Below are positions 3,946-51,500 of a DNA stretch of 64,000 bases, piece by piece. The notes below the pieces were generated by a model. That model was not told the DNA's origin, made no database searches, and was given only the letters and a program-made list of their open reading frames with translations. This DNA is from an uncultured Hyphomicrobiales bacterium (lineage in GTDB: Bacteria; Bacteroidota; Ignavibacteria; Kapaibacteriales; UBA2268). Within the stretch, counting starts at the first letter, position 1, and each line of letters starts with the position of its first letter. The DNA is taken from contig CAZDXB010000007.1 of assembly GCA_964509335.1 (NCBI GenBank), positions 44,882-108,881 of the forward strand, in the 5' to 3' direction. The position numbers and the translations under genes are program-made.

Positions 3946-3975
3946 CTCCTTCCCAAATTGCAATTTGGGAAGGAG
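3946..3975. repeat. Hairpin repeat family 2 (CTCCTTCCCAAATTGCAATTTGGGAAGGAG)
   Basis: Perfect 30-bp palindrome. Related copies with core CC(G/C)AAATTGNAATTT(C/G)GG occur at 17428, 21159, 34116 and 43846, and in the 6342-6466 array. Confidence 0.7.
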
Positions 3976-15361: not shown

Positions 15362-15468
15362 CAAAATATGCCCGTAATACCTACTTTGATTTTTTGACAA
15401 AGATGAAAGATAATAAAGCAAAAAATCGCCGAAAATTAATACGTTTGGAGTAAGACGGAAAAGCGAAG

Positions 15469-17427: not shown

Positions 17428-17451
17428 TTTCCGAAATTGCAATTTCGGAAA
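17428..17451. repeat. Hairpin repeat family 2 copy (TTTCCGAAATTGCAATTTCGGAAA)
   Basis: Perfect palindrome. Confidence 0.7.
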
Positions 17452-21660: not shown

Positions 21661-21663
21661 AAG

Positions 21664-27191: not shown

Positions 27192-27205
27192 ATAGCGGGG
27201 ATAAT

Positions 27206-28120: not shown

Positions 28121-28135
28121 TTAGATTTTGCCGAT

Positions 28136-29215
28136 ATGAAAGAAGACGAATTAAATTTTGAGCAAGCTGGACGGAAAAAGAAGAAACCGTCGTCGATAAT
28201 AAATATACTTTTAATCGTAGCGACTTTTTTTACGACTTCGATAGCCGGAGTCTTGTGGGCGGGCAAGGATTTTACCGACCTGTCCAACATTCATTTGGGA
28301 TTCGCTTACGCTATATTGATTGTAACTTTTTTAGGAGCGCACGAGTTCGGACATTACATAGCGTCGCGAGTTCACAAAGTGGACGCTACTTTGCCGTTTT
28401 TTATTCCGTTCCCGCCCGCGCCCAATTTGCCGAGTATATTCGGAACTTTCGGCGCTGTAATCAAAACTTATTCGCCTATACGCTCTCGCAAAGCTTTGTT
28501 CGACATAGGAGTAGCGGGACCTATCGCGGGCTTTGTCGTAGCGTTCGCCTTTTTGATTTACGGGCTTTCGACTTTGCCCGGCAAAGAGTTCATCTACAAT
28601 ATTCATCCCGAGTATTTAACCGAATTCGGCGGGAAAATACCTGAAACGAGCTTGCACTTTGGCGACACTTTGCTCTTTTGGATTAGCGCGAAACTCTTCG
28701 CTAATCCGGACGGCTTTCTGCCGCCGATGAACGAAATTTATCACTATCCTTTTCTGAACGTCGGCTGGTTCGGTTTGTTCGTAACGACTTTAAATTTAAT
28801 ACCCATCGGTCAGTTGGACGGCGGACACGTAGCCTACGCTATGTTCGGCGAGGAAAAACAATACAAAGTCGCCAATATCGCTTGGAAAATTATGATGGCG
28901 ATAGGGATAGTTGGATTGCTGGGAATATTATACGATTTTATGTCCTTTGATTATCCCGACAAAACTTATCAGTTTTTCAAAGATTTGCTCCTGCCGCCTC
29001 TGAAATTTATTAAAGCAAAGGTCCCTTGGTTGCTGCAGTGTTGGCCCGGATGGCTCTTTTGGGGATTGATAGCTAGATTTTTCATTAAGTTGCGGCATCC
29101 TCCTTTAATTGAACACGGCGAACCGCTAGATTCAAAAAGAAGAGCAATTGGTTGGTGCGCCTTCGTAATTCTTTTCTTGAGCCTATCTTATAACGGCATA
29201 TACTTTATTCAGTAA
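28136..29215 (+). CDS. Site-2 protease (M50) family intramembrane zinc metalloprotease
   Basis: Polytopic. HExxH inside a TM helix (LGAHEFGHYIASRVH). A second conserved motif region is LNLIPIGQLDGGHV (LDG of the S2P family). Confidence 0.7.
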   Translation: MKEDELNFEQAGRKKKKPSSIINILLIVATFFTTSIAGVLWAGKDFTDLSNIHLGFAYAILIVTFLGAHEFGHYIASRVHKVDATLPFFIPFPPAPNLPSIFGTFGAVIKTYSPIRSRKALFDIGVAGPIAGFVVAFAFLIYGLSTLPGKEFIYNIHPEYLTEFGGKIPETSLHFGDTLLFWISAKLFANPDGFLPPMNEIYHYPFLNVGWFGLFVTTLNLIPIGQLDGGHVAYAMFGEEKQYKVANIAWKIMMAIGIVGLLGILYDFMSFDYPDKTYQFFKDLLLPPLKFIKAKVPWLLQCWPGWLFWGLIARFFIKLRHPPLIEHGEPLDSKRRAIGWCAFVILFLSLSYNGIYFIQ

Positions 29216-29320
29216 AAACATATGCTATACAGTATCCGATTTATTTGATAAGGCTAATTATTTTTTTTATATTGTCAAATCTAAGAAACAGTGTTAAAAA
29301 ATAAACAGAGGTAGATAGTA

Positions 29321-30868
29321 ATGGGTGAAAAGGTAGAAAATTTAGCTTTAACGAATCCTTTGTCGAAAATAATTGATAAAGGCCCTAAGGATTTTACTAG
29401 AGAAGACTTAATTAAAGTTATAGAAGAAAAAGAGATAGAAAGAATCACCTTCCATTATACGGGCGTTGACGGAAAAATAAAAGAATTAAAACTGCCGGTA
29501 AATAGCAAAAGATACGCGGAGCTAGTTTTAACCGAAGGCGAGCGAGCGGACGGCTCCTCGTTGTTCAAAGGAATGGTTGACCCCGGCAAATCGGATTTAT
29601 ACGTAGTTCCCAAATACAGCACGGCTTTTCTTAATCCTTTTGTGGAAGGCAGTTTGGATTTCGTTTGCCGTTTTATCAATCCTCAAGGCGAGTTGGCGGA
29701 GTTCCCGCCGGATAACATTCTTCGCCGAGCGAGCGATATGTTAAAGGACAATACGGGATTCGATTTGCACGCTTTGGGCGAGCTGGAATTCTTTCTTTTA
29801 AGCGACCCGGAAAACAGAACGTTTCCGCTTCCTAAGCAAGCGGGCTATCACGCCAGTTCGCCGTTCGTTAAGAACAACGAAGCTCTAAACGAAATGCTCA
29901 GGCTGATAACGCAAATAGCGGGGAACGTAAAATACGCTCACAGCGAAGTTGGCTTTTTGTCTAGAGTGGAAAGCGAATTAGAAGAAATCGACGGCAAAAT
30001 GGCGGAACAAGTGGAAGTTGAATTCCTGCCGACGCCTATAGAAGAAACGGGCGACTCGCTGGTGTTGGCGAAATGGATTATTCGCAACGTAGCTTATAAA
30101 CACGATTGCGTCGCTACTTTCGCTCCGAAAATTGAAGTCGGGCACGCCGGCAACGGAATGCACGTTCATCTTGCTTTAATGAAGGACGGCAAGAACGCGA
30201 TGGTCGATTCAAACAACCAATTGAACGAAAATTCCAAAAAAGTAATAGGCGGTTTGTGTAAATACGCTTCTAGCTTGAACGCTTTCGGCAATACGGTAGC
30301 CGGTTCTTATTTAAGACTGGTGCCGCATCAAGAAGCGCCGACAAAAGTATGCTGGAGCGAGATGAACCGCAGCGCGTTGATTCGCGTGCCGCTTGGATGG
30401 AACGAAGTCGAAAATTTAGCGTCAATAGTCAATCCCAACGAAAAGCTGCCCGAAACAAAGTTCGATTCAAGGCAGACCGTCGAGCTTAGAAGCCCAGACG
30501 GAAGCTGTAACTCGCATTTGCTATTGTCCGGAATTACTATGGCTGTCGATTGGGGATTGACCAACGGCGAAGAAGCTCTTAAAATTTCCGACAAATGTTA
30601 CGTAGCCGGCAATATCCACGACGAGGACAACGAGTTAAACTTGGAAGAAATCGCCGAAAGTTGCGAAGATTCCGCCGACGTATTGCTCGAGCATAGGGAT
30701 ATATTCGAAAGGAAAGATATTTTCCCCAAAAACGTAATAGACTTCATTGCTGAAAAGTTAAAAGAAGAGGAAGATAGAGATTTACATAAACGATTGATGT
30801 CGCTTTCGGACGAAGAAAAAGTTAAAGAGTCGAGACGAGTTATGCACAAGGATTTGCATAAACATTAA
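29321..30868 (+). CDS. Glutamine synthetase family protein (GS beta-grasp + catalytic domains)
   Basis: 515 aa. The N-terminus ITFHYTGVDGKIKELKLP resembles the GS beta-grasp domain. Catalytic-domain-like motifs NGMHVHLAL and SYLRLVPHQEAPT... are present. Type I versus other GS classes was not resolved. Confidence 0.65.
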   Translation: MGEKVENLALTNPLSKIIDKGPKDFTREDLIKVIEEKEIERITFHYTGVDGKIKELKLPVNSKRYAELVLTEGERADGSSLFKGMVDPGKSDLYVVPKYSTAFLNPFVEGSLDFVCRFINPQGELAEFPPDNILRRASDMLKDNTGFDLHALGELEFFLLSDPENRTFPLPKQAGYHASSPFVKNNEALNEMLRLITQIAGNVKYAHSEVGFLSRVESELEEIDGKMAEQVEVEFLPTPIEETGDSLVLAKWIIRNVAYKHDCVATFAPKIEVGHAGNGMHVHLALMKDGKNAMVDSNNQLNENSKKVIGGLCKYASSLNAFGNTVAGSYLRLVPHQEAPTKVCWSEMNRSALIRVPLGWNEVENLASIVNPNEKLPETKFDSRQTVELRSPDGSCNSHLLLSGITMAVDWGLTNGEEALKISDKCYVAGNIHDEDNELNLEEIAESCEDSADVLLEHRDIFERKDIFPKNVIDFIAEKLKEEEDRDLHKRLMSLSDEEKVKESRRVMHKDLHKH

Positions 30869-30875
30869 ATCGCCC

Positions 30876-31085
30876 TTAACGTTTGGGCTTGAAGTCGGGT
30901 TTTTCTTCTTTTTCCCAGAATTCCGGCGAGTTGACTTTTTTGTAAGAATCCTCGCTTTCGATGATAGATTCGATACTATTATCGGCGGGGATTTTTTTAT
31001 GAATTTCCCGACTAGAAGTATAGCCCGCGTCTCCTATAAAAGACGCGAGCCATACGAAAGTCAATATTGCTAAAACTGCTTTCAT
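30876..31085 (-). CDS. Small secreted protein (hypothetical), C-terminal ...EKPDFKPKR motif
   Basis: 69 aa with signal peptide MKAVLAILTFVWLASFIG. Shares a C-terminal motif with the adjacent 84-aa ORF. Confidence 0.3.
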   Translation of the reverse strand: MKAVLAILTFVWLASFIGDAGYTSSREIHKKIPADNSIESIIESEDSYKKVNSPEFWEKEEKPDFKPKR

Positions 31086-31096
31086 AGTTAACTAAA

Positions 31097-31351
31097 CTAG
31101 TCGTTGATTGGGTCTCTCTTAGGCTTCCAATCGGGCGGGTCGTCCCAAGGTTCTACAACGCCGCAATTCGGGTCGTAGGTTTCCTCGAAATACTGAACCG
31201 CGTCTTGCTGAAGGTTTTCGTCGTAGTACACGTCTTCGACGACTTGCTGGTTTTCTTCGTAGATGTAGATTAGGTCGTCGGCAGTGTACTGAGTTCCCGT
31301 TCCCGGTATCAACAATTGAAGATACCATAAAATAGCGATTAAAATATCCAT
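31097..31351 (-). CDS. Small secreted acidic protein (hypothetical), C-terminal ...PDWKPKRD motif
   Basis: 84 aa, hydrophobic N-terminus, acidic Tyr-rich body. Paralogous C-terminus to 30876-31085. Confidence 0.3.
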   Translation of the reverse strand: MDILIAILWYLQLLIPGTGTQYTADDLIYIYEENQQVVEDVYYDENLQQDAVQYFEETYDPNCGVVEPWDDPPDWKPKRDPIND

Positions 31352-31644
31352 TTTTACCCCCTATAATAATAAATAAAAAACGAATTTAACGGCTATAGTT
31401 CCAACTGGCGTGCCATATAAAACAGAAGAGCTTTAAAAAAGGGGAGTCTAAGGGTTTTTGCTCCTTTCGGCAAACCAATGACGCTGTAAACGCTTTAACA
31501 TCTATAATTTGCAAGTTCGGTAAAAAAAGCAATGCTTTAACGATTAGTTTTAAATAAATGGTATGGGTTTTGCTTAAAAGGAAACAAATAGGTTTATTTT
31601 AGCCAATGCGGCTAATTATTTAACCAATTGAAAAATGGTAGGAT

Positions 31645-34035
31645 ATGCGAAAGATGAAAAATAAAAGCTTGACTGGGGCTATAATCGCGATTATAGTAAC
31701 GGCGATTTGTATTTTTCAAACGCCGTTGTTAGCGAAAGGGCGCTTGGATAGTTTGACCAAGTCGCTTCAAGCCGCTGATTACGAGGACAGCGCCGAGATA
31801 TATAATGAAATATCCGAAAAGTATTTAGCCGAATCCCCCAAAAAGAGCATAGCTTTCGGCAAAAAGGCTTTGATGGTCGCCGAAAGAAACAACGACGAAG
31901 CCTTAAAAGCCAGAGCCTATATGTCTATCGGAGCCGGGTTCGAGTTTCAAGAGCAATACGATTTGGCTTTGTCTTATTACAAAGACGCTTTGTCGATTCA
32001 AAAGAAAATTGGCGACCAAAAAGATATTTCGAGGTCTCTAAACAATATCGGGGTTTTATATCAAAAAGCGGGGAATTTAGATTCAGCCGCCAAATATTAT
32101 GAAATAGCCTTGAATATTAAAGAGAAATTTAGCAATTACGAAGAGATAGCTAAAACGCTATATAACTTGGGTTCGGTTTATTCAATAAAGGGAGAGTATA
32201 ACAAAGCCATAGAATTTTTTAATAGACTGCTTAAAATACAAAAGAGACTTTCGAACAAAGAAGAACTCGCGAATGTTCACAACTACTTAGCCTATTCTTA
32301 CCAAAAAGTTGGCAAATACGACGCCGCTTTAAACAATTATTTGTCTGAATTGAAATTACGAGAGGAACTGAATCAAACCGAAAACGTCGAGAGATTCTTC
32401 TCGAAAATCGGGAAAATATACTACCAGATGCAGAATTACGAGAAGGCTATCGAATATTATAACAAAGCTTTGTTGATTGTTAAAGATAAAGACGAGGAGA
32501 TGGAAACGGCGAAGACTCTATCGAATCTAGGCAACGTTTATTACGAGGCAAAAGACTTTCGGGAAGCTTTGGAATACTATAAAAAATCGTTAAAAATAAC
32601 GGAGGACAAAGAGCAGTCCAGCGAAGACTTTAAATTGAGCGACAACGCCTTAAGGGGCAAGGCAATTCTTCTTAACAACTTGGGTTTGGTTTATAAAAAT
32701 TCCGGCGATTACGAAAAAGCGCTAGTTTATTGCAAAAGAGCAATTGAACTGAAAGACTCGATAAGCGAAGACAGCGACATTTTCTATCCGCTCACAAGCT
32801 TAGCCGAGATTTATTTGAAATTGGACAAACCCCAAGAAGCGCTAAATAACCTCGAAAAATCACTCGATATAGCCGAGCGAAAAGACAATATAAATTTAAA
32901 GAAAATCGCCCGAAAATTGCTCTACGAAGTTTACGCGAAAATCGGCGATTACGAACATGCTCTTGAAAACCATAAGAAATACTCCGCTCTAAAGGACAGC
33001 ATCTTGAACAAAACGACTAATAAGATAATTTCGGAGATGCAGGTCAAATACGAGACGAAAAGAAAAGAGCAGGAAAACAAAGCTCTGAAACGCGTAAACG
33101 AGACTCAGCGAAATTATTTTATAGTAATATCCGCTCTGATACTAATTATTTTAGGCGTTCTATATAGTAGATACAGAGGCAAGCAAAAAGCCAACAAGAT
33201 GTTGCGCGATATGAACAAGCAAATCAAAAAGCAGCACGGCGAGTTAGAATACATGTTTTCGCAATTGCAAGCGAAAGAAGAGCGATTGCGAGAAGCCAAC
33301 GCCACAAAAGACAAATTCTTTTCAATAATAGCGCACGATTTGAAGAATCCCTTGCAAGCTATAACCTTGTCGGCGGATATGCTGAAGAACAAATATAGAT
33401 ACATGGAAGCCGAGCAATTGGTTTCGCTAATCGGTAACATCAATAACGCCGGCGAGCATCTGTCCTCGCTTTTGGAAAATCTGCTGCAATGGTCGAGAAC
33501 GCAGAACGGAAAAATCAAGTATTATCCAGAGGAAATAGATTTAAAGGTCGTGGCGAAAGAGAACGTACAACTGATTTCCGCTTACGCCGAAAAGAAAGGC
33601 GTAAAAGTAAAAAGCGACATCGCCGCTCAAAAGAGAGCTTTTATCGACAAAAACATGATAAGCACCGTATTCCGCAATTTGATTTCCAACGCCGTTAAAT
33701 TTACCGAGGAAGACGGAGAGGTCAACTTGTCGGTAAACGAAAAAGATTTGTTTTACGAGGTGGCGGTAAAGGACACCGGAGTCGGCATAAGCGAAAAAGA
33801 CTTAGATACATTGTTTAGAATAGACGCTCATCGCACAACCAAAGGCACCCGCGACGAAAAAGGCACTGGCTTGGGCTTGATTTTATGCAAAGAATTCGTC
33901 GAGATGAACGGCGGAAGGATTTGGGCTGAAAGCGAGCTTGGCGAAGGCTCGACATTCTATTTCACCGTCCCGAAATTTATGAAAGACAAAAACAAAGGAC
34001 CGAGAGACGACGTTAATATCGTTAATATGAATTAA
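31645..34035 (+). CDS. TPR-repeat sensor histidine kinase (signal peptide, ~12 TPR units, TM, HisKA, HATPase_c; no receiver)
   Basis: 796 aa. Repeated A..YY..AL.I....G TPR pattern. TM NYFIVISALILIILGVLY. H-box FFSIIAHDLKNPLQAI. G-boxes DTGVGIS and GTGLGLILCKEFVEMNGGRIWAESE. Confidence 0.8.
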   Translation: MRKMKNKSLTGAIIAIIVTAICIFQTPLLAKGRLDSLTKSLQAADYEDSAEIYNEISEKYLAESPKKSIAFGKKALMVAERNNDEALKARAYMSIGAGFEFQEQYDLALSYYKDALSIQKKIGDQKDISRSLNNIGVLYQKAGNLDSAAKYYEIALNIKEKFSNYEEIAKTLYNLGSVYSIKGEYNKAIEFFNRLLKIQKRLSNKEELANVHNYLAYSYQKVGKYDAALNNYLSELKLREELNQTENVERFFSKIGKIYYQMQNYEKAIEYYNKALLIVKDKDEEMETAKTLSNLGNVYYEAKDFREALEYYKKSLKITEDKEQSSEDFKLSDNALRGKAILLNNLGLVYKNSGDYEKALVYCKRAIELKDSISEDSDIFYPLTSLAEIYLKLDKPQEALNNLEKSLDIAERKDNINLKKIARKLLYEVYAKIGDYEHALENHKKYSALKDSILNKTTNKIISEMQVKYETKRKEQENKALKRVNETQRNYFIVISALILIILGVLYSRYRGKQKANKMLRDMNKQIKKQHGELEYMFSQLQAKEERLREANATKDKFFSIIAHDLKNPLQAITLSADMLKNKYRYMEAEQLVSLIGNINNAGEHLSSLLENLLQWSRTQNGKIKYYPEEIDLKVVAKENVQLISAYAEKKGVKVKSDIAAQKRAFIDKNMISTVFRNLISNAVKFTEEDGEVNLSVNEKDLFYEVAVKDTGVGISEKDLDTLFRIDAHRTTKGTRDEKGTGLGLILCKEFVEMNGGRIWAESELGEGSTFYFTVPKFMKDKNKGPRDDVNIVNMN

Positions 34036-34115: not shown

Positions 34116-34147
34116 TCATTCCGAAATTGGAATTTCGGAATGAGGGA
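34116..34147. repeat. Hairpin repeat family 2 copy (TCATTCCGAAATTGGAATTTCGGAATGAGGG)
   Basis: Perfect palindrome. Confidence 0.7.
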
Positions 34148-34195: not shown

Positions 34196-34869
34196 TTAAG
34201 GTGACAGGCGCTAACGATAGGCGGATAACCGACACGCTTTAGCGGTCGGATATCCTTTTTCGGCGATATCGAGCGATGGCAAATAGTTAAAGAGACTGTC
34301 TCGAAAGCAATAAATTCATACACGGGGGGCAAGCCCCGTGTGCTTCCAAAGTAAATCAGCGTAAAGCGATGGAATATAAACTTATCAGTCAATATTGAAA
34401 GGACGCATCGGGGCTAGCCCCGATGTAATATTTAAGTTTTTTAGGCAGTCGCTTCAGTTGTCGGCTTTCGTCAAGCGGCTTCTTAGCGTTAGCGGAAAGC
34501 TAAAGCTTTCCGTTTCCTTGGATTGCGAAGACGGGGGCGTCTTCGCTACTCTGTTTTGAAAAAATAAAAATAATATTTGGATTGTATAAATTTTGTTTTT
34601 ATATTTGTATTGGAATGTTATAAGTTCATATATATATATGATTTACAAAAACAAATAGAGGAGGCGTAAATTTGCCGGACATAATAGTTATAGAATGCCA
34701 AAGATTAAAACTGCCAAAATAAAGGACCGGCGAGAGTAAGCCGCGTCGCCGGTCCAATTATTGCGTCAACGCGCGTTCCCGAGTTTAAGATGTTATATTC
34801 GCGTTATAACTGCGGCTCGGGAACGCCGCCTATAATAACAATTACAAATTTAATAAAAAGGAAAGAGTT
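34196..34869 (+). promoter_or_regulatory. Long conserved non-coding leader, copy 1: ~100-bp conserved block (34196-34300), ~260-bp hairpin-rich unique segment, then ~310-bp block (34560-34869) with AT-rich promoter-like region, SD-preceded 16-codon uORF (34672-34722) and two GC-rich stem-loops (34724-34755; 34773-34826)
   Basis: 34560-34886 is ~95 % identical to 38566-38891, and 34196-34300 is ~85 % identical to 38336-38440. Hairpins GGACCGGCGA-N12-TCGCCGGTCC and GCGTTCCCGAG-N32-CTCGGGAACGC are identical in both copies. The uORF AGAGGAGG-7nt-TTG is MPDIIVIECQRLKLPK. Confidence 0.6.
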
Positions 34870-35457
34870 ATGAAAAAGATAATTTTGTTAATAATAGGTT
34901 TAATGTTTTTATCGTTTGTAATTTTGAAATCGCAACCAGCTTGCGAGCCTTGTTCATCTCAAACTACTTGGGCAAATGCACCTGTTAGTGTTTTACACGT
35001 TGTAATATCTGGTTCGGGATGCGAATTTGACGTTGAATACCAAACAATATTCTGCCTGACAGATGGAACTTGTAATTTTAGAATATTAAAACTCTACAAT
35101 ATTTTGGAGGCTTGCGACGGTTATGGTCCATTGGAATTACTAGAACAAGCGGCGCTGCAAATTATAAAAAACGATGGTATGTTCAAACAATGCTGGCCAT
35201 CTGGCTCTGGAGATTGTGTAGAACAAACTAGAGAGTGGTCCGCGGCTTGCTGGAAGTGGAAAGGAAACGTTGGTCCAGGACCGGGAACTACAGCTACGCT
35301 TAAGCCTTGCGAAACAGAGTCCTGTTGCGAATCCTATTATATGATTTGTAATGAAGGAGGAGCAATTATTGTTTATAAAACATATACAGAGGCAACTCAT
35401 CCTTGCGTGAATCCCGGTCCTGAGTGCTTTATAAGATGTGATTCTGGAGAAAAATAA
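34870..35457 (+). CDS. Cysteine-rich secreted protein (195 aa, ~19 Cys), uncharacterised family; paralog of 38875-39450
   Basis: Signal peptide MKKIILLIIGLMFLSFVILKS. C.PC near the mature N-terminus and the motif GCEFDVEYQTIFC match C.C and HCVFEAYYC in the paralog. The first 17 nt of the CDS are identical to the paralog, as part of the duplicated leader. Confidence 0.6.
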   Translation: MKKIILLIIGLMFLSFVILKSQPACEPCSSQTTWANAPVSVLHVVISGSGCEFDVEYQTIFCLTDGTCNFRILKLYNILEACDGYGPLELLEQAALQIIKNDGMFKQCWPSGSGDCVEQTREWSAACWKWKGNVGPGPGTTATLKPCETESCCESYYMICNEGGAIIVYKTYTEATHPCVNPGPECFIRCDSGEK

Positions 35458-38239: not shown

Positions 38240-38313
38240 TTCCGTCCGCTCCAGCGGCGGAACGCATATTGAGACGCTCCGCGTCGTTTTTTCTTTGCCG
38301 CGCAGAGCGCGGG
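38240..38313 (+). repeat. REP-like element family 1, extended copy d (three hairpins: GTTCCG..CGGAAC, GACGCTCCGCGTC+T6, CCGCGCAGAGCGCGG)
   Basis: Begins 21 bp after the 36063-38219 stop. The long form is shared with copy e. Confidence 0.8.
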
Positions 38314-38335
38314 TTATTTTGGAATGAGGGGGAAG

Positions 38336-38874
38336 AGGGCGCTAACGATAGGCGGTAAACCGACACGCCTTAGCGGTCGGCAATCGTATCGCGGCAATAT
38401 TGAGCGCTGGCAAATAGTTAAAGCTATCGGTTGCCGAAAGATTACTTTGAAATATCGCATAGTTTTTGTGCGTATAAACCAATATAATATAAAATATTTA
38501 TAGAATATCTATGTTCACATGTGAACATTTTCAGCCCGCTATGTTCATATGTGAACATAGCTTAAATAATAAAAATAATATTTGGATTGTATAAATATTG
38601 TTTTTATATTTGTATCGGAATGTTATAAGTCCATATATATATATGATTTACAAAAATAAATAGAGGAGGCGTAAATTTGCCGAACATAATAGTTTTAGAA
38701 GGGCGAAGATTAAAACTGCCTAAATAAAGGACCGGCGAGAGTAAGCCGCGTCGCCGGTCCAATTATTGCGTCAAAGCGCGTTCCCGAGTTAAAGATGTTA
38801 TATTCGCGTTATAACTGCGGCTCGGGAACGCCTCCTATAATAACAATTGCAAATTTAATAAAAAGGAAAGAGTT
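38336..38874 (+). promoter_or_regulatory. Conserved non-coding leader, copy 2 (100-bp block 38336-38440; unique AT-rich segment with two perfect palindromes at 38511-38528 and 38539-38560; 310-bp block 38566-38874 with uORF 38677-38727 MPNIIVLEGRRLKLPK and the same two stem-loops)
   Basis: See copy 1. Palindromes ATGTTCACATGTGAACAT and CTATGTTCATATGTGAACATAG, read directly. Confidence 0.6.
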
Positions 38875-39450
38875 ATGAAAAAGATAATTTTAATATCGAT
38901 AACAATAGTCTTATTAGGATTAACTTTTAGCGCTAATAAGCTTAACGCACAGTGCGATTGCCCTCAAGACATACCGCCAACGAATATACCTTGGACTGTG
39001 GAAGGTCCCCATTATATCTTCATATACGACGACGAAGGTGACCATTGCGTTTTTGAGGCATATTATTGCTGGCGTAAAATTCTAGATTATTATCCGTCGC
39101 CGGAAATTCAAGTTGTTGTTTGTAAATATAGTCCTACGGAAGATTGCAACGAGAATTTTAATCTTTCGGTTTGGGAAATATATAAAAAATTGGGAATAAA
39201 AATAATTGAATTAAATCCAGATAATTTAGATTGGCCCGCTCCACCTTGTCCATATGGTTATCCATATTACTCAGTAGTAACTTTCGGTTGCTATGATGTA
39301 TATGACGAAACCCCGTGCGGCGGTTTAGTGTATTGTAAATACTTATTTGAAGTTTGTATGAGTGCGGGTCAAAGGATAACTAAGCCATTAGGAGCGACGA
39401 CGGTTGGAGACGAATGTCCGGTCGGGTGCGATAACAAATGCGGCGATTAA
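38875..39450 (+). CDS. Cysteine-rich secreted protein (191 aa, ~18 Cys), divergent paralog of 34870-35457
   Basis: Signal peptide MKKIILISITIVLLGLTFSANKLNA. Mature QCDCPQD...; HCVFEAYYC; C-terminal ECPVGCDNKCGD. Confidence 0.6.
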   Translation: MKKIILISITIVLLGLTFSANKLNAQCDCPQDIPPTNIPWTVEGPHYIFIYDDEGDHCVFEAYYCWRKILDYYPSPEIQVVVCKYSPTEDCNENFNLSVWEIYKKLGIKIIELNPDNLDWPAPPCPYGYPYYSVVTFGCYDVYDETPCGGLVYCKYLFEVCMSAGQRITKPLGATTVGDECPVGCDNKCGD

Positions 39451-39476
39451 TGATTGTAATAAAAAAGGAACTTGCT

Positions 39477-41954
39477 ATGTCGATTACAAAATATATTTTA
39501 ACAACGATAACAATAACTATAATCTTAGTTAATCCGTTGAAAGCCGAAAAGAAAATTGTTTGGCAAAATACAATATCGCGAATTTTGGATTGTCAAGTTA
39601 TCGATTCGCAGAATTACGTGATAGTCGGCGACGACGGCAAGATAATCTCGACGAGCGACGGCGGTTTTACTTGGCGATGGTTAGAATGCGGTTTGAGAAA
39701 TATATTTTACGGCGTAGATTTCCTCGACAAGAATACGGGCGTCGTTGTCGGCGACGGCGGCGCCTTCACCGCCACTACCGACGGCGGCGAGACTTGGCGT
39801 ACAGAAACTATAGATACGACCGCGTTTTTTTCGGTCGAAATGAAGAGCAAAAACGCGATATTCGCAAGCGGAATGAATACTTGTATTTACAAATCGAGCG
39901 ATTTCGGCGAGACTTGGAAAAAGGTTTTTAGCGGCGATAACGCCGTATTAGAAAACTATTTTTTCTTTAAAGACAGCATAAAAACAATAAAAGCCTATTC
40001 AAACAATAGCGATATTCATTTTGTAAACGACTCTATCGGTTTTGCCGCGGGCGTCGGACCTTTCGTTTTAAAAACCGAGGACGGCGGGGAGAGCTGGCGC
40101 AAAGTTCTGCAAAAAGGAGACAGCGCTCTATTTACGGATATCGACTTTTACGACGATAAACGCGGCGTAGCGGCGGGAGGCGATTTCGTATATAACGATT
40201 CGTTAAACTATGGGTATTTAAAAGCGAAGGCGTATTATACATTGGACGGAGGAGAAAACTGGATAGAAATGGATGCGCCGGGAGCGGGGCATTATATAGG
40301 CGCGAAGATGTTCGATAGCTCTTATATATATTTACTCGGCGGAACTCATTGGTCTCATATAACTAAAGATTTCGGTAACAGTTGGCGAAAAATTAAGTTT
40401 ATCGATTACAAATACTTCAAAAACAATCTGGACACTGATAATTATAAAGATACGACCGCGGCTTGGGGATCTGATTATACGCCGACAGCTATGTCCTCCG
40501 ATAACGAAGGGGTTATATTGTCTATCGACAAACAAGGAGTGATAATGAAATCGACCAATTTCGGCATAAATTATCAAACTTTAAAGAAGTTTGAAATGTA
40601 TGAATTTATTGGACATTATTTTAGACGCATTCACGGTTTTGCATCGCTTTCGGAAAACAAAGCGTTATTTTTTGGCGAGGAAAGCAAAGTTTATAGAACT
40701 TCCGACGGGGGAACAAGCTGGGACATTATTTTCCCTCGTTATGAAATAAAAAACTGGGATGATAAAGAATTTTGGAGTAGTATTTCATCGTCCAACGCTT
40801 CTTTTTATACTAGTTATTTACCCGATAGCGCGAACGGTTTCATTGCAGGCAAACTCGACGGTTGGAAGCCGTCAAATACGATATTTACTTCCGACGGCGG
40901 CGAAACTTGGGATATCGTAAATAATTTGAAATCGAAGAGCCTTAGTTTTATATCAAGAGATACAGGATTCGCAATAGGTTACGATTCATTACTTTTAAAA
41001 ACTGAAAATTTTGGGCTTAGTTGGGATACTCTGAGAATTTTTCATAGATCGGGCGATTATAATGAACGGCAACTTAACAATCGACCTCTACAAATAGTTT
41101 TTCCCGACTCAAGCGCCGGATATCTAATCATTAATTCAGCTTATATAAAAACAAACGATACGATTACTTATCCTACGGGTTATAAAGGGATCTCTAAGCT
41201 TTATAGAACTACAGACCGCTGGCAAACTTTCGATTCAATTTTTTGCGAGGAAACTCGCTGGCCCTTCGATAAAATTCACTTTATGGATAAAAATACGGCG
41301 TATATTTTTAGCGGCGACCATAAAACAATCTATAAAACGACCGACGGTTGCAAGACTTGGGATACGCGTATGCTTCCGGGAAATTACCATTTCGTAAACG
41401 ACGTTCATTTTATAGACGAAAATTTCGGGGTCGCCGTGGGGCGGCAGGACACAATATTTACTACGCGAGACGGCGGAAAATCTTGGGAAATAAAAGTTCT
41501 GCCTTTTAATAGAAATTATTTTGGCGATAAAAGGGGGGAGGATTTATATGATTTTATAGAAATAACCGAAGCAAAAAACGGTGATTTGTTTATTGTTGGC
41601 AAGGGCAGGGTTGTTAGAGGGTTAATAATAAACGACACGACGACGGTAGAGGGCCAAACGGAAGGCGGCAGGTATTGTCAGTTTTATTACATCACGATTA
41701 TCCCAAATCCTGTTAAGGGAACAGCGAAAATAAATTTATATGGATTGACACAGGCTAAGGGGCATAAATTGAGCTTAAAAATATACGATATAAACGGAAA
41801 TTTCGTTAAAGATATATCTAAGAAGGCGAACGCCAACAGCGATGGCAAAACCGCCGAGTTTGAAGTTAATTTGCACGGTTTGCCGAGCGGCATATATTTT
41901 ATTCAATTGGAGAGCAACAGCCGGACTAGATCCCGGAAGTTTATAAAGTATTAA
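39477..41954 (+). CDS. Large BNR/Asp-box repeat (Ycf48/sortilin-like) double beta-propeller protein with T9SS C-terminal sorting domain
   Basis: Track start 39438; ATG 39477 gives signal peptide MSITKYILTTITITIILVNPLKA. At least 12 Asp-box-like repeats (SDGGFTWRW, TDGGETWRT, SDFGETWKK, EDGGESWRK, LDGGENWIE, SDGGTSWDI, SDGGETWDI, TDGCKTWDT, RDGGKSWEI ...). C-terminal IIPNPVKGTAKINLYGL...FIKY CTD. Confidence 0.7.
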   Translation: MSITKYILTTITITIILVNPLKAEKKIVWQNTISRILDCQVIDSQNYVIVGDDGKIISTSDGGFTWRWLECGLRNIFYGVDFLDKNTGVVVGDGGAFTATTDGGETWRTETIDTTAFFSVEMKSKNAIFASGMNTCIYKSSDFGETWKKVFSGDNAVLENYFFFKDSIKTIKAYSNNSDIHFVNDSIGFAAGVGPFVLKTEDGGESWRKVLQKGDSALFTDIDFYDDKRGVAAGGDFVYNDSLNYGYLKAKAYYTLDGGENWIEMDAPGAGHYIGAKMFDSSYIYLLGGTHWSHITKDFGNSWRKIKFIDYKYFKNNLDTDNYKDTTAAWGSDYTPTAMSSDNEGVILSIDKQGVIMKSTNFGINYQTLKKFEMYEFIGHYFRRIHGFASLSENKALFFGEESKVYRTSDGGTSWDIIFPRYEIKNWDDKEFWSSISSSNASFYTSYLPDSANGFIAGKLDGWKPSNTIFTSDGGETWDIVNNLKSKSLSFISRDTGFAIGYDSLLLKTENFGLSWDTLRIFHRSGDYNERQLNNRPLQIVFPDSSAGYLIINSAYIKTNDTITYPTGYKGISKLYRTTDRWQTFDSIFCEETRWPFDKIHFMDKNTAYIFSGDHKTIYKTTDGCKTWDTRMLPGNYHFVNDVHFIDENFGVAVGRQDTIFTTRDGGKSWEIKVLPFNRNYFGDKRGEDLYDFIEITEAKNGDLFIVGKGRVVRGLIINDTTTVEGQTEGGRYCQFYYITIIPNPVKGTAKINLYGLTQAKGHKLSLKIYDINGNFVKDISKKANANSDGKTAEFEVNLHGLPSGIYFIQLESNSRTRSRKFIKY

Positions 41955-41974: not shown

Positions 41975-42051
41975 CGTTCCGCCCGCTCCAGCGGCGGAAC
42001 GCATACCCAGACGCTCCGCGTCGTTTTTTCTTTGCCGCGCAGAGCGCGGGG
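41975..42051 (+). repeat. REP-like element family 1, extended copy e
   Basis: GTTCCGCCCGCTCCAGCGGCGGAACGCATACCCAGACGCTCCGCGTCGTTTTTTCTTTGCCGCGCAGAGCGCGGG, 21 bp after the 41954 stop. Confidence 0.8.
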
Positions 42052-42153
42052 AATTTATGAGGCGAAACACTGATTCAGCTTACCCTCCTTCCAAAACTCC
42101 GATTTTGGAAGGTTATTTATATCAATTTGTCGCGGTGTCGTTTAATGACGCGC

Positions 42154-43943: not shown

Positions 43944-44020
43944 CCGAGTAAACGGGGTATCCCTTCTACTAGTCGTTGTAGAGACGCAAAATTTTGCGTC
44001 TCTACTTTTTCAGCTTCGAA

Positions 44021-47337: not shown

Positions 47338-48447
47338 TTAACGCCAATTAATAAGCATCGAAAAACGCATAGTGTTCGCTAGCGGATGGTTCGCTTCGAC
47401 AGTGTTAATGTAACTGAAGTCAAGCTGGAACATATCGTAACGAACTCCGGCGCCGAAATTATAAAACTTTCTGTTGCCTAAGGTGGAAGGCTCCCAGAAA
47501 TAGCCTCCTCTAAGAGCGACGAGATGTTGGTACCAATACTCCAATCCGAAAGAAACTTCCGCTCCGGGATTTTCCCAGCCGGTGATTAAAGATTTCGGCA
47601 ACGGGTCGGAGTCGATAGAATCTCTTTTGACTAATAGCTTCGAAACGTCAAAAGCGAACTTCAATTCGTTAAATTCGTTTTCGAATACTTTAATTGCCGT
47701 GCCGACTCTCAAAGTAGTGGGAAGCGGGTCGGCTTCGTTTCTGTAAGTCATTTTCGGACCTACGTTCTGGATATTAAAACCTAAAGCGATTCTGTCCCGA
47801 ATAGGAAGTCCGAAAACGTTCAAATCTTGCGGCGACCACAGTATGCCCAAATCAAAAGCGCCGCTGATTCCGGTGCCGGCTCCTTCGTTCTGTCCGGGAG
47901 CGGCGGGCGCTAAGTTCGATTGTATATATTTAAGTTGAACTCCGACAGCTAAGTCTCTCGCCACTATTGTTCCGTAAGCGATATTAAAAGCGAATTCGCT
48001 CGAAAGGAATTTTCCGAGAACTCTGCCGCTTTCGTGAGTTCTGGTAAATTCGCCTAAGTTCATAAAAGTAAAATTAGCGGCGACGGTTCCGTCGAGTTCT
48101 TCGAAGAATTGACCGAATGTTCCGTAACTGTAAAATAAATCAGCGTTAAATTGCGGCAGCCATCGCGAAAAGGCGAACGCTATTTGCCTCCAAGGGCTGT
48201 AGTCGTCCGGGTTTGTCGGATTCACGAAATAGTCGTGAAACCCTAAACCGGCGGGATTCCAGTAAATAGCGTTTATATCGTCGGCTATTGCCGTGCCTAC
48301 CTCGCCCATTCCGCTAGCTCTGGCGTCGGGTGAAATCAATAGGAAGGGAACGGCGGCGCCGCCCGCTTGCGATTTCGCTACGTTTGTGGAAAACCCAAAA
48401 ACTAGTAGGGCTATTAGTATGATTTTTAGTTTGCTTAACCGTTTCAT
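47338..48447 (-). CDS. porV: T9SS outer-membrane shuttle protein PorV (LptO) family, FadL-like beta-barrel
   Basis: 369 aa, signal peptide. N-terminal AAVPFLLISPDARASGMGEVGTAIADD, as in PorV-family proteins. Immediately downstream of a C25-peptidase PorU-like gene, the canonical porU-porV order. Ends in aromatic ...LINWR. Confidence 0.65.
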   Translation of the reverse strand: MKRLSKLKIILIALLVFGFSTNVAKSQAGGAAVPFLLISPDARASGMGEVGTAIADDINAIYWNPAGLGFHDYFVNPTNPDDYSPWRQIAFAFSRWLPQFNADLFYSYGTFGQFFEELDGTVAANFTFMNLGEFTRTHESGRVLGKFLSSEFAFNIAYGTIVARDLAVGVQLKYIQSNLAPAAPGQNEGAGTGISGAFDLGILWSPQDLNVFGLPIRDRIALGFNIQNVGPKMTYRNEADPLPTTLRVGTAIKVFENEFNELKFAFDVSKLLVKRDSIDSDPLPKSLITGWENPGAEVSFGLEYWYQHLVALRGGYFWEPSTLGNRKFYNFGAGVRYDMFQLDFSYINTVEANHPLANTMRFSMLINWR

Positions 48448-48508
48448 CTTTATTCCTCCTAAATTTTATTTTAATAATTTATTTTCATTTATTCCAAAAA
48501 TAATACCA

Positions 48509-51500
48509 TTATTTGATAATATTCAAAAAATTTGTTGATTCTACCATAATTCCGTCTTTATTTATCGCTTTTAGACGATAATAATAAGCTCCGCTAGTTA
48601 GATTTTTTCCGTTGTCGTCTTGGCAATTCCAACGTATTTCGGTTTTATATTTCGTTTGCGCTTCGCTCGATAGGGTAGATACGATTCTGCCCAAAGCGTC
48701 GCGCACGGTAATTTCGTAATCGAACGGCGGGTTTATAGTGTGATTAAAACTGAAAGTCAAGCTTGAACTAGCGGGATTTGGATAGGTCGTAAGATTATGA
48801 ATAATCAATCCGTCGCAAGACGCGGTTCTGAAGTAGGTCTCGGTTATCGAAAAGTTGTTGAACACGTCCCAAGCGCGAATTTTTATTTTATGTAGCCCGG
48901 GTTCCAAATCATACAGGATTTTTGTCGCTTCTCCCGAACGTGAATCTCCGAAAGAAGCGGAGAAGTTATCAGTTAAATCGATAGATTTGCGCGCGTCGTC
49001 TATCCAAGCTTCGATATTATGTCCTAAACCTATGCCTGTGGCGTTAATGCCGCTCTCGTCTGATAGCTCGACGATTAGCGTAGGCTCGCAACTAACGTAA
49101 TCGCCGGAAACGAACTCTTTTGAGTCTAAATAAACTTCGATTTCCGGTCCTCTGGAATCTGCGTGTGTGGTAGTATCAAGCCCGTCTATTATAAATTTGC
49201 GAGTGTCGCCTTTAGCAAATCTGTCGTCGTCGGAGTAAGCGTAAACTAAAAGTCTGCCGGGTTCGCCGGAAAAACTAATATCCTTCGGAATAATAAACTC
49301 GCTCGTAAATTTTCCGTTCTTAACTTCGCAGGAGCTTTGGTTTAGCGTTCCGCCGTATTTTGTGAAATGATGAGTCGTGCCGTTCGGAGAGCCGTCGTCT
49401 TCGAAAGCTCTTATTTGTTTGTCGCTATCGAGCATAGTGATTATTGCCGTTCCGTTGAATGTTTCGTCCGTAACGGTTGAAGACGCAGAAGTTACGCTTC
49501 CTTCAATCGTTACTTCCGACAAACCTTTCAATTTAGCCGTGTCTCCTTTTGATACGTTTACGTCGTTAATCTTGTTAATACGAGCGTTGTATTCGGGAAT
49601 TAGTATTTTTATCGTGGGGTCGCCGAGCAAACAGTATTTTTTGTCGTTCCTTTTATACTTTTCGTATTTTGTAATCATATTCACTACGCCTAAAGAGAAA
49701 TATTCGCCCGTTTCTTCGTTTTTTTCGAAGAAATTTCGGTAAAGAGTTTCGTTAAGCCTAGCGTTTGGGTCTGCAAATACGAGTCTCGTCGAAGAGAAAA
49801 CGCCTATGGCTCCGCCTCGCTCGCTAAGCAATAATTCTTCGGCGCCGCTTCTTATCTCCGGCGAATCGAATCGTCCGAAGTCGCAACTGGCGGCGGTGGC
49901 GAAAAATAATTTATCGAGATTAGTGAATTGCGGAATCGTTAAACTCCTCTCTAAGATTTCTTCGTGCGCCCAAACTCTTGGATTTCCGTGTCCAATATAG
50001 CATAAGAATAAGTTGCCGTCGTTATTGGAAGCCGAGAGCATTTCCTGAGTTACGCGCGGTTTTCTTTTGCCGCCGGTAACGCTTTCGCTTGGATATTCTG
50101 CCATATAGATTTTATTTACTCGCAAAAAATTCGGGAGATGATTTCTACATAGCTGTTCAGCGTCGTTTGTATGCAAGGTTCCGTCGGTAGAACCGCTTTT
50201 TTTCCAGCTATCGTCGGCGACGACCGTTATATTAGTTCTCCAAGAGTCCTCGCTCGATTCGTTTTCGTATTTACCGATTTTTTCTATCATCCAATTTCCC
50301 TCGCCGTTGGATTGAACGGGGATTCTGCCCAGCGCTATATCGATTAAGTCGTCGTCGCCCGCTATATTGGCGAAAAAGTCGTCGCTTGTGTAAGAATCAA
50401 TTTCGTCGTAAGAAAAAGAACTATTCGGTATTTGATAAGTCGGCGCGTAATTTTTCTCGTCCGTTCCTATTAACTTATAGTCGTAATGCCCGTCGCCCCA
50501 AAGCAAAACATATTTCGGCTTGCGCTCCCAACGGTCGAAAGCGTCCGCTATAAAATCTCTTATCGCCGTCGGGTCGGGCGTTCCTGAATTATATTCGTTG
50601 TAAATTTGAGTCAATGTCGCTATAAAAACTGAAATGTTCGAGCGCTCTTCTCTATATTCTTTATAATTGTTCGCCGATTCGAGTAAGTCTTTATGCGTTA
50701 TTAAAATTAAGTCAGAGCCTTTGCTCTCGCCCCTTAAGTTAGCGAATTCGGCTATTTGCAGAGACGGTTCTTTTATTTTTGAAGAAATGAAAAACTTCTT
50801 AGGACGATTTGCTTCCGTCTCGTTTTTAAAGCGGAACATTCCGCCGGTAACCGCTTTGTTTTCGATTAGTTTCGGATTCGCCGCGTCGGTTGTTTCAAAA
50901 CCGTAGATTTCCCCGCCGGAAAAGCCGTTTGTTAAGTATTCAACTACTCCGTCGTTTTCGGGATTTGAAAAGAAACTTAATTCATTGTTTATCGGCTCTA
51001 GATAGGCGGGATAGTGGATTTCATACCAATCGAAGTATCCTTGCGCTCCGCCGTCGCCGGAATAGTTTGTGTATTCAAATTTCAACGAGCTTCTGTTGTC
51101 AGCCGATACGTAGGAGGCGGGAGCTTTCGCGGTAACTTCTTCTCGTTCGGCGTCGTCGTGTCCCGAAGTTATTTTTAAATGCGCCTCGCATAACTTGTTG
51201 TCGTTTTCGTAGATGTCGAAAGTTCCAGTGTAGGGAGCGCGGTGCGCCACTGAAAAGCGGTAGAATATTTCGCCGTCTCTTTTCAAATTATTTAGTCGCT
51301 CGACAAACACAGCCGGCAACAAGTTCCTGCCGAACCAAGCCCTTCCCGAACCCGCGATATAAGCGTTGTGCATCTCTTCTTCGTAAAATATTCTTCTGGT
51401 ATAGGTATTCGGTTCGTAATCGGCTTCATATGTCGGTTGAACAATCGGTTCGGCTCTTTTGCCCGAATCGCCCGACCAAGTCAACATATAATAAGAGTTC

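What the first reader, a model, noticed from the sequence alone, without database searches (positions are those of the whole stretch)
38509..38560. Two adjacent perfect palindromes (18 and 22 bp) with a TGTTCA-N-TGAACA core, found only upstream of cassette 2
ATGTTCACATGTGAACAT (38511-38528) and CTATGTTCATATGTGAACATAG (38539-38560) are separated by 10 bp. They sit in the segment that replaces the hairpin-rich spacer of copy 1.

Long perfect dyads of the form TGTTCA(C/T)ATGTGAACA are typical of dimeric transcription-factor operators. Two of them side by side suggests cooperative binding by a repressor.

They do not match the Gram-positive Cheo box (GAAC-N4-GTTC), and I could not match them to the E. 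coli LexA box or the common CRP site from memory. The element sits ~120 bp upstream of the promoter-like AT-rich part of the leader. The factor that might bind it is not apparent in this window.
Basis: seen in the sequence. Interest (0 to 1): 0.55.

Follow-up and report, generated by a model that had tools for sequence, protein, structure and literature searches.

The report
Orphan pair of XRE-type operator palindromes
Two nearly identical palindromes just upstream of one secreted-protein operon match the self-regulating binding sites of a widespread family of small XRE repressor-like proteins, but no such protein is encoded nearby, so this is probably an ordinary, unassigned transcription-factor site.

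Summary
The palindromes are real. Site 1 (38511-38528) is a perfect 18-mer. Site 2 (38539-38560) is not perfect: one central pair, T38548/G38551, is mismatched. The shared core TGTTCA-N4-TGAACA occurs nowhere else in the 64-kb window, even at 3 mismatches.

Exact-match scans of public genomes and metagenomes showed what this sequence is elsewhere. In 18 fetched loci it lies directly upstream of one family of 65-80-aa XRE/HTH_3 proteins. A near-perfect copy is centred at about -32 from the ATG, with a weaker copy at -8 or a second good copy 30-34 bp away. Four of four family members chosen by protein homology alone carry the same sites. Their neighbours are restriction and other defence genes, which is the layout of controller (C-protein/HipB-like) regulators.

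In the window the pair, with centres 30 bp apart, has that operator architecture but no cognate gene. It ends 3 bp before a 300-nt promoter/leader module shared at 95% by two otherwise unrelated T9SS-cargo cassettes.

Best reading: an orphan tandem operator for a trans-encoded XRE-type dimer, giving cassette 2 its own regulatory input. It could also be a relic. Function here is untested. This is a new member of a known kind, of modest interest.

The parts
38511..38528 (.). Site 1: perfect 18-bp palindrome ATGTTCACATGTGAACAT (16-bp core 38512-38527, half-site TGTTCA, 4-bp centre)
   Evidence: Read and verified as its own reverse complement. It is identical to the consensus distal operator upstream of the XRE family.
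38529..38538 (.). 10-bp spacer TTTCAGCCCG between the palindromes (14 bp between the 16-bp cores, centres 30 bp apart)
   Evidence: The spacer is not repeated, so only the palindrome itself is duplicated. Core spacings of 30-34 bp also occur in XRE loci L051, L041, L090, L097 and L177.
38539..38560 (.). Site 2: 22-bp near-palindrome CTATGTTCATATGTGAACATAG with one mismatched pair (T38548/G38551); 16-bp core 38542-38557
   Evidence: It has 1 mismatch to the reverse-strand pattern.
38424..38563 (+). Copy-2-specific, A+T-rich 140-bp segment that carries both sites. It replaces the 266-bp hairpin-rich segment of copy 1 (34293-34558).
   Evidence: Repeat map and pairwise alignment. Homology to copy 1 ends at 38423 and resumes at 38564, 3 bp after site 2.
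38552..38579 (+). Weak alternative sigma-70-like promoter: -35 TGAACA (right half of site 2), 16-bp spacer, -10 AATAAT. It would put site 2 at about -36 and site 1 at about -66.
   Evidence: Consensus scan only (9 of 12 matches). The geometry resembles the -32/-66 sites of L177 and L041. This is inference.
38581..38612 (+). Main predicted promoter of the shared leader: TTTG (38581-84) or TTGGAT (38582-87), then TATATT / TAtaTTTG (38605-12). The start is expected near 38618.
   Evidence: Read from the sequence. It is identical in both leader copies. It fits both the sigma-70 and the Bacteroidota-type consensus, as I recall them. No start site has been mapped.
38564..38863 (+). 300-nt promoter plus 5' leader module shared with cassette 1 (34559-34858, 95% identical). 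The homology runs on about 25 nt into the coding sequence.
   Evidence: The leader RNA folds at -74.4 kcal/mol, z = -4.2. There is no Rfam family.
38875..41954 (+). Cassette 2, the likely regulated genes: a 191-aa Cys-rich secreted protein (38875-39450) and an 838-aa BNR/Ycf48-like propeller with a T9SS C-terminal sorting domain (39438-41954)
   Evidence: ORFs and Pfam. The proteins are barely similar to those of cassette 1.

Best explanation
The two palindromes are a tandem pair of operators for a dimeric helix-turn-helix transcription factor. The most likely binder is a small stand-alone XRE/Cro-CI-type protein of the HipB/controller-protein kind, encoded elsewhere in the genome.

Each dimer would read one TGTTCA-N4-TGAACA site. 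The 30-bp centre-to-centre distance, about three helical turns, puts both dimers on one face of the DNA, so they could bind cooperatively.

The pair abuts the promoter/leader module of cassette 2 and is absent from cassette 1. It would therefore give cassette 2 a regulatory input that cassette 1 lacks. That input could be activation or anti-activation from about -68/-98, or occlusion of a weak upstream promoter whose -35 lies inside site 2.

- **Shown:** the sequence, its uniqueness in the window, and the link between this motif and the XRE family in other genomes.
- **Inferred:** that such a protein exists in this genome, that it binds here, and the sign of the effect.
For: **The sites**
- They are real, nearly identical and unique in 64 kb at up to 3 mismatches.
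- Only the palindrome is repeated, not the spacer, which points to copies kept for their own sake.

**Link to one protein family**
- Among loci fetched by the palindrome alone, 18 carry one family of 65-80-aa HTH_3/HTH_26 proteins next to it, at fixed geometry. A near-perfect site is centred at -31/-32 from the ATG, with a weaker site at -7/-8, or there are two good sites 30-34 bp apart.
- Independent test: 4 of 4 members chosen by protein homology only (L177, L178, L180, L181) have the same sites at -32 and -8, with 0-3 mismatches.
- A second XRE-type family, the Xre-like antitoxin paired with a RES toxin in Marinobacter, has the same 16-mer 11-23 bp upstream of its gene.

**Fit to known regulators**
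- 'Two operator copies, the distal one closer to consensus' is the published pattern for controller proteins (PMC2632904). Here site 1 is perfect and site 2 has one mismatch.
- The closest solved relatives of the family are HipB (E = 1.5e-9) and C.Esp1396I.
- About 73% of 148 exact matches elsewhere are intergenic.

**Position**
- The pair lies 21 bp upstream of the shared promoter module.
Against: - No HTH regulator and no homologue of the XRE family is encoded in the 64-kb window.
- In every comparator locus the regulator gene starts 0-25 bp after the proximal site. Here the next coding sequence is 315 bp away and encodes a secreted Cys-rich protein.
- Named members of the family are mostly Gammaproteobacteria, and other palindrome-adjacent members sit on contigs labelled Acidobacteria. 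The window comes from a Kapabacteria/Ignavibacteria-like member of Bacteroidota.
- No second locus with the motif was found in this lineage. The nearest relative lacks the whole cassette region.
- The sites lie upstream of the core promoter, which is an unusual place for a simple repressor.
Confidence: 0.5

Rival explanations
1. Relic. The pair is the leftover operator region of a small XRE-led defence, toxin-antitoxin or restriction module. The regulator gene and its cargo were lost by deletion or recombination at the leader boundary, and the sites now do nothing.
For: - In all comparator loci the operators sit directly in front of the XRE gene. Here that gene is missing, and homology to the leader of cassette 1 starts only 3 bp after site 2, as expected for a junction.
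- The family travels with mobile defence genes.
- The HK-plus-cassette region is lineage-specific and absent from the syntenic site of the nearest relative.
Against: - Both sites are essentially at consensus (0 and 1 mismatch), while the neighbouring duplicated 86-nt segment has diverged by 14%. Unselected sites of similar age should have decayed, although the insertion could be recent.
- No remnant of an XRE reading frame lies on either side.
- No other defence-island debris is adjacent.
Confidence: 0.22
2. Structural DNA/RNA element. The 52-bp dyad is a hairpin or cruciform of the kind this genome scatters in intergenic regions (REP/BIME-like repeat, insulator or terminator), not a protein operator.
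For: - The 71-nt stretch folds far better than shuffles (z = -8).
- The window is rich in long palindromes, 6 against 0.7 expected, and has other palindrome families and a RAYT-like Y1 transposase pseudogene.
- The corresponding spacer in copy 1 is filled with hairpins.
- In two other genomes (Desulfocapsa, Pyrinomonadaceae MAGs) the same 16-mer is part of a dispersed repeat.
Against: - There is a single locus in 64 kb, whereas the other palindrome family recurs at least 3 times.
- The stem is A+T-rich and no T-run follows it on either strand.
- The upstream gene already has two canonical terminators at 38273-38312.
- There is no GTAG/CTAC head.
- Rfam gives only sub-threshold generic hairpin hits.
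Confidence: 0.13
3. The sites are operators for a different regulator family, for example PadR, a winged-helix BlaI/CopY-like protein, or an uncharacterised Bacteroidota factor linked to type IX secretion. The match to the XRE operator is convergent.
For: - In Cyclobacterium (L109) the palindrome TTGTTCACATGTGAACAA lies between a weakly PorV-like gene (Pfam E = 0.0021, 18 bits, below the 27-bit cut-off) and a divergent PadR gene. The window also carries porU/porV and T9SS cargo genes.
- Two Bacteroidota loci (L086, L112) have the 16-mer upstream of homologous ABC ATPase genes.
- Several unrelated families evidently use this palindrome.
Against: - These are single instances among hundreds of expected chance or unrelated hits.
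- The PadR consensus as I recall it is ATGT-N8-ACAT, whereas these sites are ATGT-N10-ACAT.
- No PadR or BlaI gene is in the window.
Confidence: 0.1

Closest known systems
Operators ('C-boxes') of restriction-modification controller (C) proteins, e.g. C.PvuII, C.AhdI, C.Esp1396I (Sorokin et al. 2009, PMC2632904)
   Same: - Two copies of one palindromic operator side by side, with the first copy closer to consensus.
- Read by small XRE-type dimers that bind cooperatively.
- The XRE family found here with this motif sits next to type I R-M, SRA-HNH, HNH plus C5-methyltransferase and McrBC-like genes. Its proximal site overlaps the start codon, as expected for leaderless mRNA.
   Different: - In the window there is no C gene after the sites and no adjacent R-M genes. 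The EcoRV-like system is 14 kb away.
- The element is 52 bp with a 10/14-bp spacer, not the 35-bp Z-X-N-X-GTG-x-n-x-Z* layout.
- The paper gives its motifs only as figure logos, so I could not check whether this motif is one of its 10 classes.
HipB antitoxin/repressor and its multiple hipBA operators
   Same: HipB is the closest solved relative of the XRE family that accompanies this palindrome (E = 1.5e-9). It is a small XRE dimer that binds several spaced palindromic operators cooperatively (my recollection).
   Different: - The HipB operator sequence as I recall it (TATCC-N8-GGATA) is different.
- No hipA-like kinase accompanies the comparator loci or lies in the window.
Off-target sites of horizontally acquired controller proteins (C.Csp231I cross-talk with the Rac prophage repressor; PMC6765115, PMC9638921)
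   Same: This is a precedent that a mobile-element XRE-type regulator can act on operator-like sites away from its own gene and change host gene expression (abstracts listed).
   Different: - Those sites are adventitious partial matches in E. coli.
- Here there are two consensus-grade copies at a defined spacing, and no regulator has been identified.

Membership tests
Operator of the small XRE family defined here (alignment A2) | Core TGTTCA-N4-TGAACA with A/T flanks | tested here: met
   Site 1 has 0 mismatches and site 2 has 1 mismatch to the consensus seen at -32 in 18 + 4 loci.
Operator of the small XRE family defined here (alignment A2) | Two copies 24 bp or 30-34 bp apart, centre to centre | tested here: met
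   The spacing here is 30 bp (38519.5 to 38549.5). L051 has 30, L041/L090/L097 have 33 and L177 has 34.
Operator of the small XRE family defined here (alignment A2) | Cognate XRE gene starts 0-25 bp after the proximal site (autoregulation) | tested here: not met
   No ORF with an HTH lies on either side. tblastn of family members against the whole window finds nothing below E = 0.5.
Operator of the small XRE family defined here (alignment A2) | Protein actually binds the site | not testable with these tools
   This needs EMSA, DAP-seq or ChIP. It has not been shown even for the comparator loci; the link there is by co-occurrence only.
R-M controller-protein C-box (Sorokin 2009 motifs 1-6) | 35-bp unit made of two operators separated by a conserved GTG, with complementary outer trinucleotides | tested here: not met
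   The element is 52 bp with spacer TTTCAGCCCG and no central GTG. The outer CTA/TAG are complementary.
R-M controller-protein C-box | Located upstream of a C gene and restriction gene operon | tested here: not met
   The downstream genes are a Cys-rich secreted protein and a T9SS propeller. The only R-M system in the window is at 22706-24555.
LexA boxes (Gram-positive Cheo box GAAC-N4-GTTC; E. coli CTGT-N8-ACAG) | Half-site order and spacing | tested here: not met
   The sites read GTTC-N6-GAAC and contain no CTGT...ACAG. The consensus sequences are from established knowledge.
CRP/FNR sites (TGTGA-N6-TCACA; TTGAT-N4-ATCAA) | Half-site order and spacing | tested here: not met
   TCACA precedes TGTGA and the two abut (TTCACATGTGAA). 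The consensus sequences are from established knowledge.
REP/BIME repeats mobilised by RAYT transposases | Many dispersed intergenic copies; conserved GTAG/CTAC head next to the stem | tested here: not met
   There is one locus in 64 kb at up to 3 mismatches. The flanks are CTAT/ATAG.
Intrinsic terminator | G+C-rich stem followed by a T-run | tested here: not met
   The terminator scan does not flag it. The scan finds two terminators upstream at 38273-38312. The stem here is A+T-rich.
Known RNA families (Rfam 15) | Score at or above the family gathering threshold | tested here: not met
   Only a tRNA passes in the window. Around the site there are only generic miRNA-hairpin hits far below threshold.

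The most novel reading that the evidence does not exclude
A controller-type XRE regulator from a mobile defence module has been wired, through an orphan consensus operator pair, to one of two type IX secretion cargo operons that otherwise share an identical promoter/leader. Acquisition or activity of a defence island would then switch which surface or secreted propeller protein the cell makes. A variant reading is that the palindrome pair marks the edge of a portable promoter-leader module that is being placed in front of unrelated T9SS cargo genes.
Probability: 0.1. Interest if true: 0.6.

Novelty: new member of a known kind. Interest (0 to 1): 0.3.

Why it matters
**For this locus.** If the sites are functional, they are the only obvious difference between two operons that share the same promoter and 5' leader. 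They would explain how the cell expresses the two cargo cassettes differently.

**By-product.** The analysis gives a testable assignment of one operator motif, TGTTCA-N4-TGAACA at -32/-8, to a large family of small XRE regulators. The family has at least 784 members, and the few source names seen say no more than XRE/HTH-type regulator. They sit next to restriction and other defence genes.

**Limits.** An unassigned transcription-factor site upstream of a promoter is ordinary. Nothing here challenges current understanding.

Tried and rejected
**Reaching the source genome and its relatives**
- **Source contig.** Look-ups by exact protein failed for the 191-aa and 838-aa products. LysRS (P0124) gave only Logan contigs of the same strain, and the longer one (L182) breaks inside the histidine-kinase gene.
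- **Leader copies elsewhere.** A 24-mer from the most conserved leader hairpin found nothing in metagenome contigs.
- **Orthologous loci.** The 191-aa protein has one homologue in 5.8 billion proteins, on 1.9-kb contigs with 126 nt upstream and no leader or motif. The nearest relative by LysRS (78%) keeps flanking synteny but lacks the cassette region.

**Databases and literature**
- **Rfam.** Nothing at gathering thresholds. The permissive search gave only generic hairpin hits.
- **Literature.** No paper holds the exact sequences. A looser search gave nothing specific. The C-protein motif paper shows its motifs only as figure logos.
- **Phage and plasmid collections.** The XRE family had no plasmid match at E <= 1e-8, and the 177-bp segment had no meaningful phage match.

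**Readings considered and rejected**
- LexA, CRP/FNR and PadR (N8) sites were rejected on half-site order or spacing.
- A terminator was rejected because there is no T-run and the stem is A+T-rich.
- A simple tandem duplication was rejected because only the palindrome is repeated.
- An invertible-promoter switch was rejected because only 12 nt lie between the arms and no recombinase is in the window.
- The long-range P1 helix of the leader is not supported by the second copy: one substitution breaks it.

Full report
**1. The observation**

- The sequence was read directly and checked by script.
- ATGTTCACATGTGAACAT (38511-38528) is a perfect 18-bp palindrome.
- CTATGTTCATATGTGAACATAG (38539-38560) is not perfect. 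One central pair, T38548/G38551, is mismatched, leaving 9-bp perfect arms around TATG.
- The 16-bp cores TGTTCA(C/T)ATGTGAACA lie at 38512-27 and 38542-57. Their centres are 30 bp apart.
- Together the sites form a 52-bp dyad. As single-stranded DNA it folds at -16.8 kcal/mol, z = -8.0.
- At up to 3 mismatches the core occurs nowhere else in the 64-kb window: only these two sites, against 0.47 matches expected.
- Long perfect palindromes are generally over-represented here, 6 of at least 18 bp against 0.7 expected. The other five are G+C-rich stem-loops.
- Only the 20-nt palindrome is repeated (19/20). The 10 nt after each copy are unrelated, so this is not a slipped 30-bp tandem repeat.

**2. 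Context**

- The window comes from a type IX secretion (T9SS) bacterium. porU and porV are at 47338-52543, and several genes carry the Por_Secre_tail domain.
- LysRS places it near 'Bacteroidota bacterium' (78% identity) and the Kapabacteria/Ignavibacteria (about 70%). G+C content is 41.8%.
- Two gene cassettes are involved. Each encodes a small Cys-rich secreted protein plus a BNR/Ycf48-like propeller with a T9SS sorting domain.
- The cassettes share a 300-nt promoter/leader module at 95% identity (34559-34858 and 38564-38863). The homology runs about 25 nt into the coding sequence.
- The encoded proteins themselves are barely related.
- Further upstream an 86-nt element is shared at 86% (34207-92 and 38338-423).
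- Between that element and the leader, copy 1 has 266 bp of G+C-rich hairpins. Copy 2 has a 140-bp A+T-rich segment (38424-38563) that carries the palindromes.
- Site 2 ends 3 bp before the shared module begins.
- The module's promoter-like elements are identical in both copies: TTTG/TTGGAT at 38581-87 and TATATTTG at 38605-12. They put the start near 38618.
- A weaker sigma-70-like promoter uses the right half of site 2 as its -35 (TGAACA 38552-57, 16-bp spacer, AATAAT 38574-79). It would put the sites at about -36 and -66.
- The upstream gene has two ordinary terminators at 38273-38312.
- No known RNA family matches.

**3. No regulator nearby**

- Pfam scans of all sizeable ORFs and of the small intergenic ORFs found no helix-turn-helix regulator in the window.
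- What they did find:
  - two histidine kinases;
  - an EcoRV-like R-M pair (22706-24555);
  - two UmuD-like S24 peptidases;
  - toxin-antitoxin genes;
  - a RAYT-like Y1 transposase pseudogene.

**4. What the palindrome is elsewhere**

- Exact-match scans gave three sets of loci:
  - 25 viral loci;
  - 31 metagenome loci for the 19-mer TATGTTCAYATGTGAACAT.
- About 73% of the 148 16-mer sites in the viral and genome loci are intergenic by a crude ORF test.
- Clustering the flanking ORFs and a follow-up BLAST showed one family of 65-80-aa proteins right next to the palindrome in 18 loci. The family is HTH_3/HTH_26, Cro/CI-type.
- The geometry is fixed. A near-perfect site is centred at -31/-32 from the ATG, with a weaker copy at -7/-8 overlapping the start. 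Alternatively two good copies lie 30-34 bp apart (L051 30; L041, L090 and L097 33).
- The family is large: at least 784 members at E <= 1e-10 (alignment A2).
- As an unbiased check I fetched four members chosen only by protein similarity. All four have the same sites at -32 and -8, with 0-3 mismatches, and L177 has a third site at -66.
- Their neighbours are restriction and other defence genes:
  - type I hsdM/hsdS;
  - an SRA-HNH nuclease;
  - an HNH nuclease plus a C5 methyltransferase;
  - McrBC-like genes;
  - AbiE;
  - a divergent CsrA-HTH gene.
- This is the published layout for controller (C) proteins: two copies of a palindromic operator, the distal one nearer consensus, leaderless mRNA, and frequent association with mobile elements (PMC2632904).
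- By sequence the closest solved relatives are HipB (E = 1.5e-9) and, more distantly, C.Esp1396I.
- A second XRE-type family also carries the same 16-mer, 11-23 bp upstream of its gene. It is the Xre-like antitoxin paired with a RES toxin in five Marinobacter species.

**5. Interpretation for the window**

- The pair has the sequence (0 and 1 mismatch to consensus), the order (perfect copy first) and a spacing (30 bp) seen in bona fide operator pairs of this XRE family.
- It lacks the defining neighbour. There is no XRE gene on either side and none anywhere in the window (tblastn).
- My preferred reading (confidence about 0.5) is an orphan tandem operator bound by a trans-encoded XRE-type dimer. 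It would give cassette 2 an input that cassette 1 lacks.
- The direction of the effect is open. At -68/-98 the sites are better placed for activation or anti-activation than for simple occlusion. If the alternative promoter is real, site 2 overlaps its -35, as the -32 site does in the family.
- Precedents exist for horizontally acquired C proteins acting on sites away from their own genes (PMC6765115, PMC9638921).

**6. Rivals**

- **Relic of a lost XRE-led module (about 0.22).**
  - For: the missing gene and the junction 3 bp after site 2.
  - Against: both sites are still at consensus, while the nearby duplicated 86-nt segment has diverged by 14%.
- **Structural hairpin or REP-like element (about 0.13).**
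  - For: the genome is rich in palindromes, and the same 16-mer is part of dispersed repeats in two unrelated MAGs (Desulfocapsa, Pyrinomonadaceae).
  - Against: the element is single-copy in 64 kb, A+T-rich, and has no T-run or GTAG head.
- **Another regulator family (about 0.1).**
  - The lead is a Cyclobacterium locus where the palindrome lies between a weakly PorV-like gene (sub-threshold Pfam hit) and a divergent PadR gene.
  - It is a single case, and the spacing does not fit the PadR consensus as I recall it.

**7. What could not be done**

- The leader has no exact 24-mer match in the metagenome collection.
- The 191-aa protein has a single short-contig homologue without the leader or the motif.
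- The nearest relative lacks the cassette region at the syntenic position.
- So conservation at orthologous loci cannot be assessed.

**8. Verdict**

- The operator interpretation is partly supported. It can be sharpened to a specific regulator class, but it remains unproven at this locus.
- This is a new member of a known kind, of modest interest.

Noticed in passing
window 34559-34899 and 38564-38899: A 300-nt promoter plus 5' leader, with the first ~25 nt of the coding sequence (MKKIIL), is 95% identical in front of two operons whose proteins are otherwise barely related. The leader has two invariant strong hairpins (38727-38758, 38778-38832) and folds with z = -4.2, with no Rfam match. The predicted long-range closing helix is broken in copy 1, so there is no covariation support.
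   Followed up: partly
window 34207-34292 / 38338-38423; 38240-38319 / 41977-42056: Two more duplicated intergenic modules: an 86-nt element (86% identical) upstream of both leaders, and an 80-nt double-terminator module (93% identical) after both cassettes. The whole cassette unit looks modular.
   Followed up: no
window 3946-3975, 17428-17451, 34118-34145: A family of perfect or near-perfect palindromes, TTCC(G/C)AAATTG(C/G)AATTT(C/G)GGAA, recurs in three intergenic regions. It could be a dispersed hairpin repeat or a regulator site. Its identity is unknown.
   Followed up: no
window 15381-15903 and 43978-44005: A RAYT-like (IS200-type Y1) transposase gene that appears to have lost its N-terminal part. 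Elsewhere there is a 28-bp perfect palindrome with GTAG...CTAC ends, of the kind RAYTs act on.
   Followed up: partly
window 21232-22089 (- strand): Two tandem 141-142-aa Peptidase_S24 (UmuD-like) genes without a DNA-binding domain.
   Followed up: no
window 22706-24555 (- strand): An EcoRV-family restriction endonuclease plus a D12-class adenine methyltransferase. No controller gene is evident in the 177-bp upstream gap.
   Followed up: partly
loci L041, L051, L090, L093, L097, L117, L132, L147, L148, L151, L152, L157, L163, L164, L166, L167, L173, L176, L177-L181: A large family (at least 784 members) of 65-80-aa XRE proteins has conserved TGTTCA-N4-TGAACA operators at -32 and -8 from a start codon that the proximal site overlaps. 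The genes sit next to restriction and other defence genes, often with a divergent CsrA-like or CsrA-HTH gene. This motif-to-family assignment may be undescribed.
   Followed up: partly
L109 6509-6524 (Cyclobacterium sp.): The perfect palindrome TTGTTCACATGTGAACAA lies 48 bp upstream of a weakly PorV-like gene (sub-threshold Pfam hit) and 242 bp upstream of a divergent PadR-family regulator gene.
   Followed up: partly
L033, L042, L050, L056 and about 20 more contigs of Desulfocapsa MAG GMC8_bin_18; L047, L049, L055, L058 and others of Pyrinomonadaceae MAG JTS-RE86: In these two genomes the same 16-mer is embedded in a dispersed repeat with conserved flanks. In Desulfocapsa it is often at contig ends, which suggests the ends of an insertion sequence or MITE.
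   Followed up: no
L014 3177-3192 and 3322-3337 (IMG/VR contig): Two perfect copies of TGTTCACATGTGAACA lie 145 bp apart in a phage intergenic region. They could be a phage operator pair.
   Followed up: partly
L184 (GCA_042584245.1) versus window 25461-34035: The nearest relative keeps LysRS-MscS-M50-GlnA synteny, then diverges. The TPR histidine kinase and both cassettes are absent at the syntenic position, so that region is lineage-specific.
   Followed up: partly
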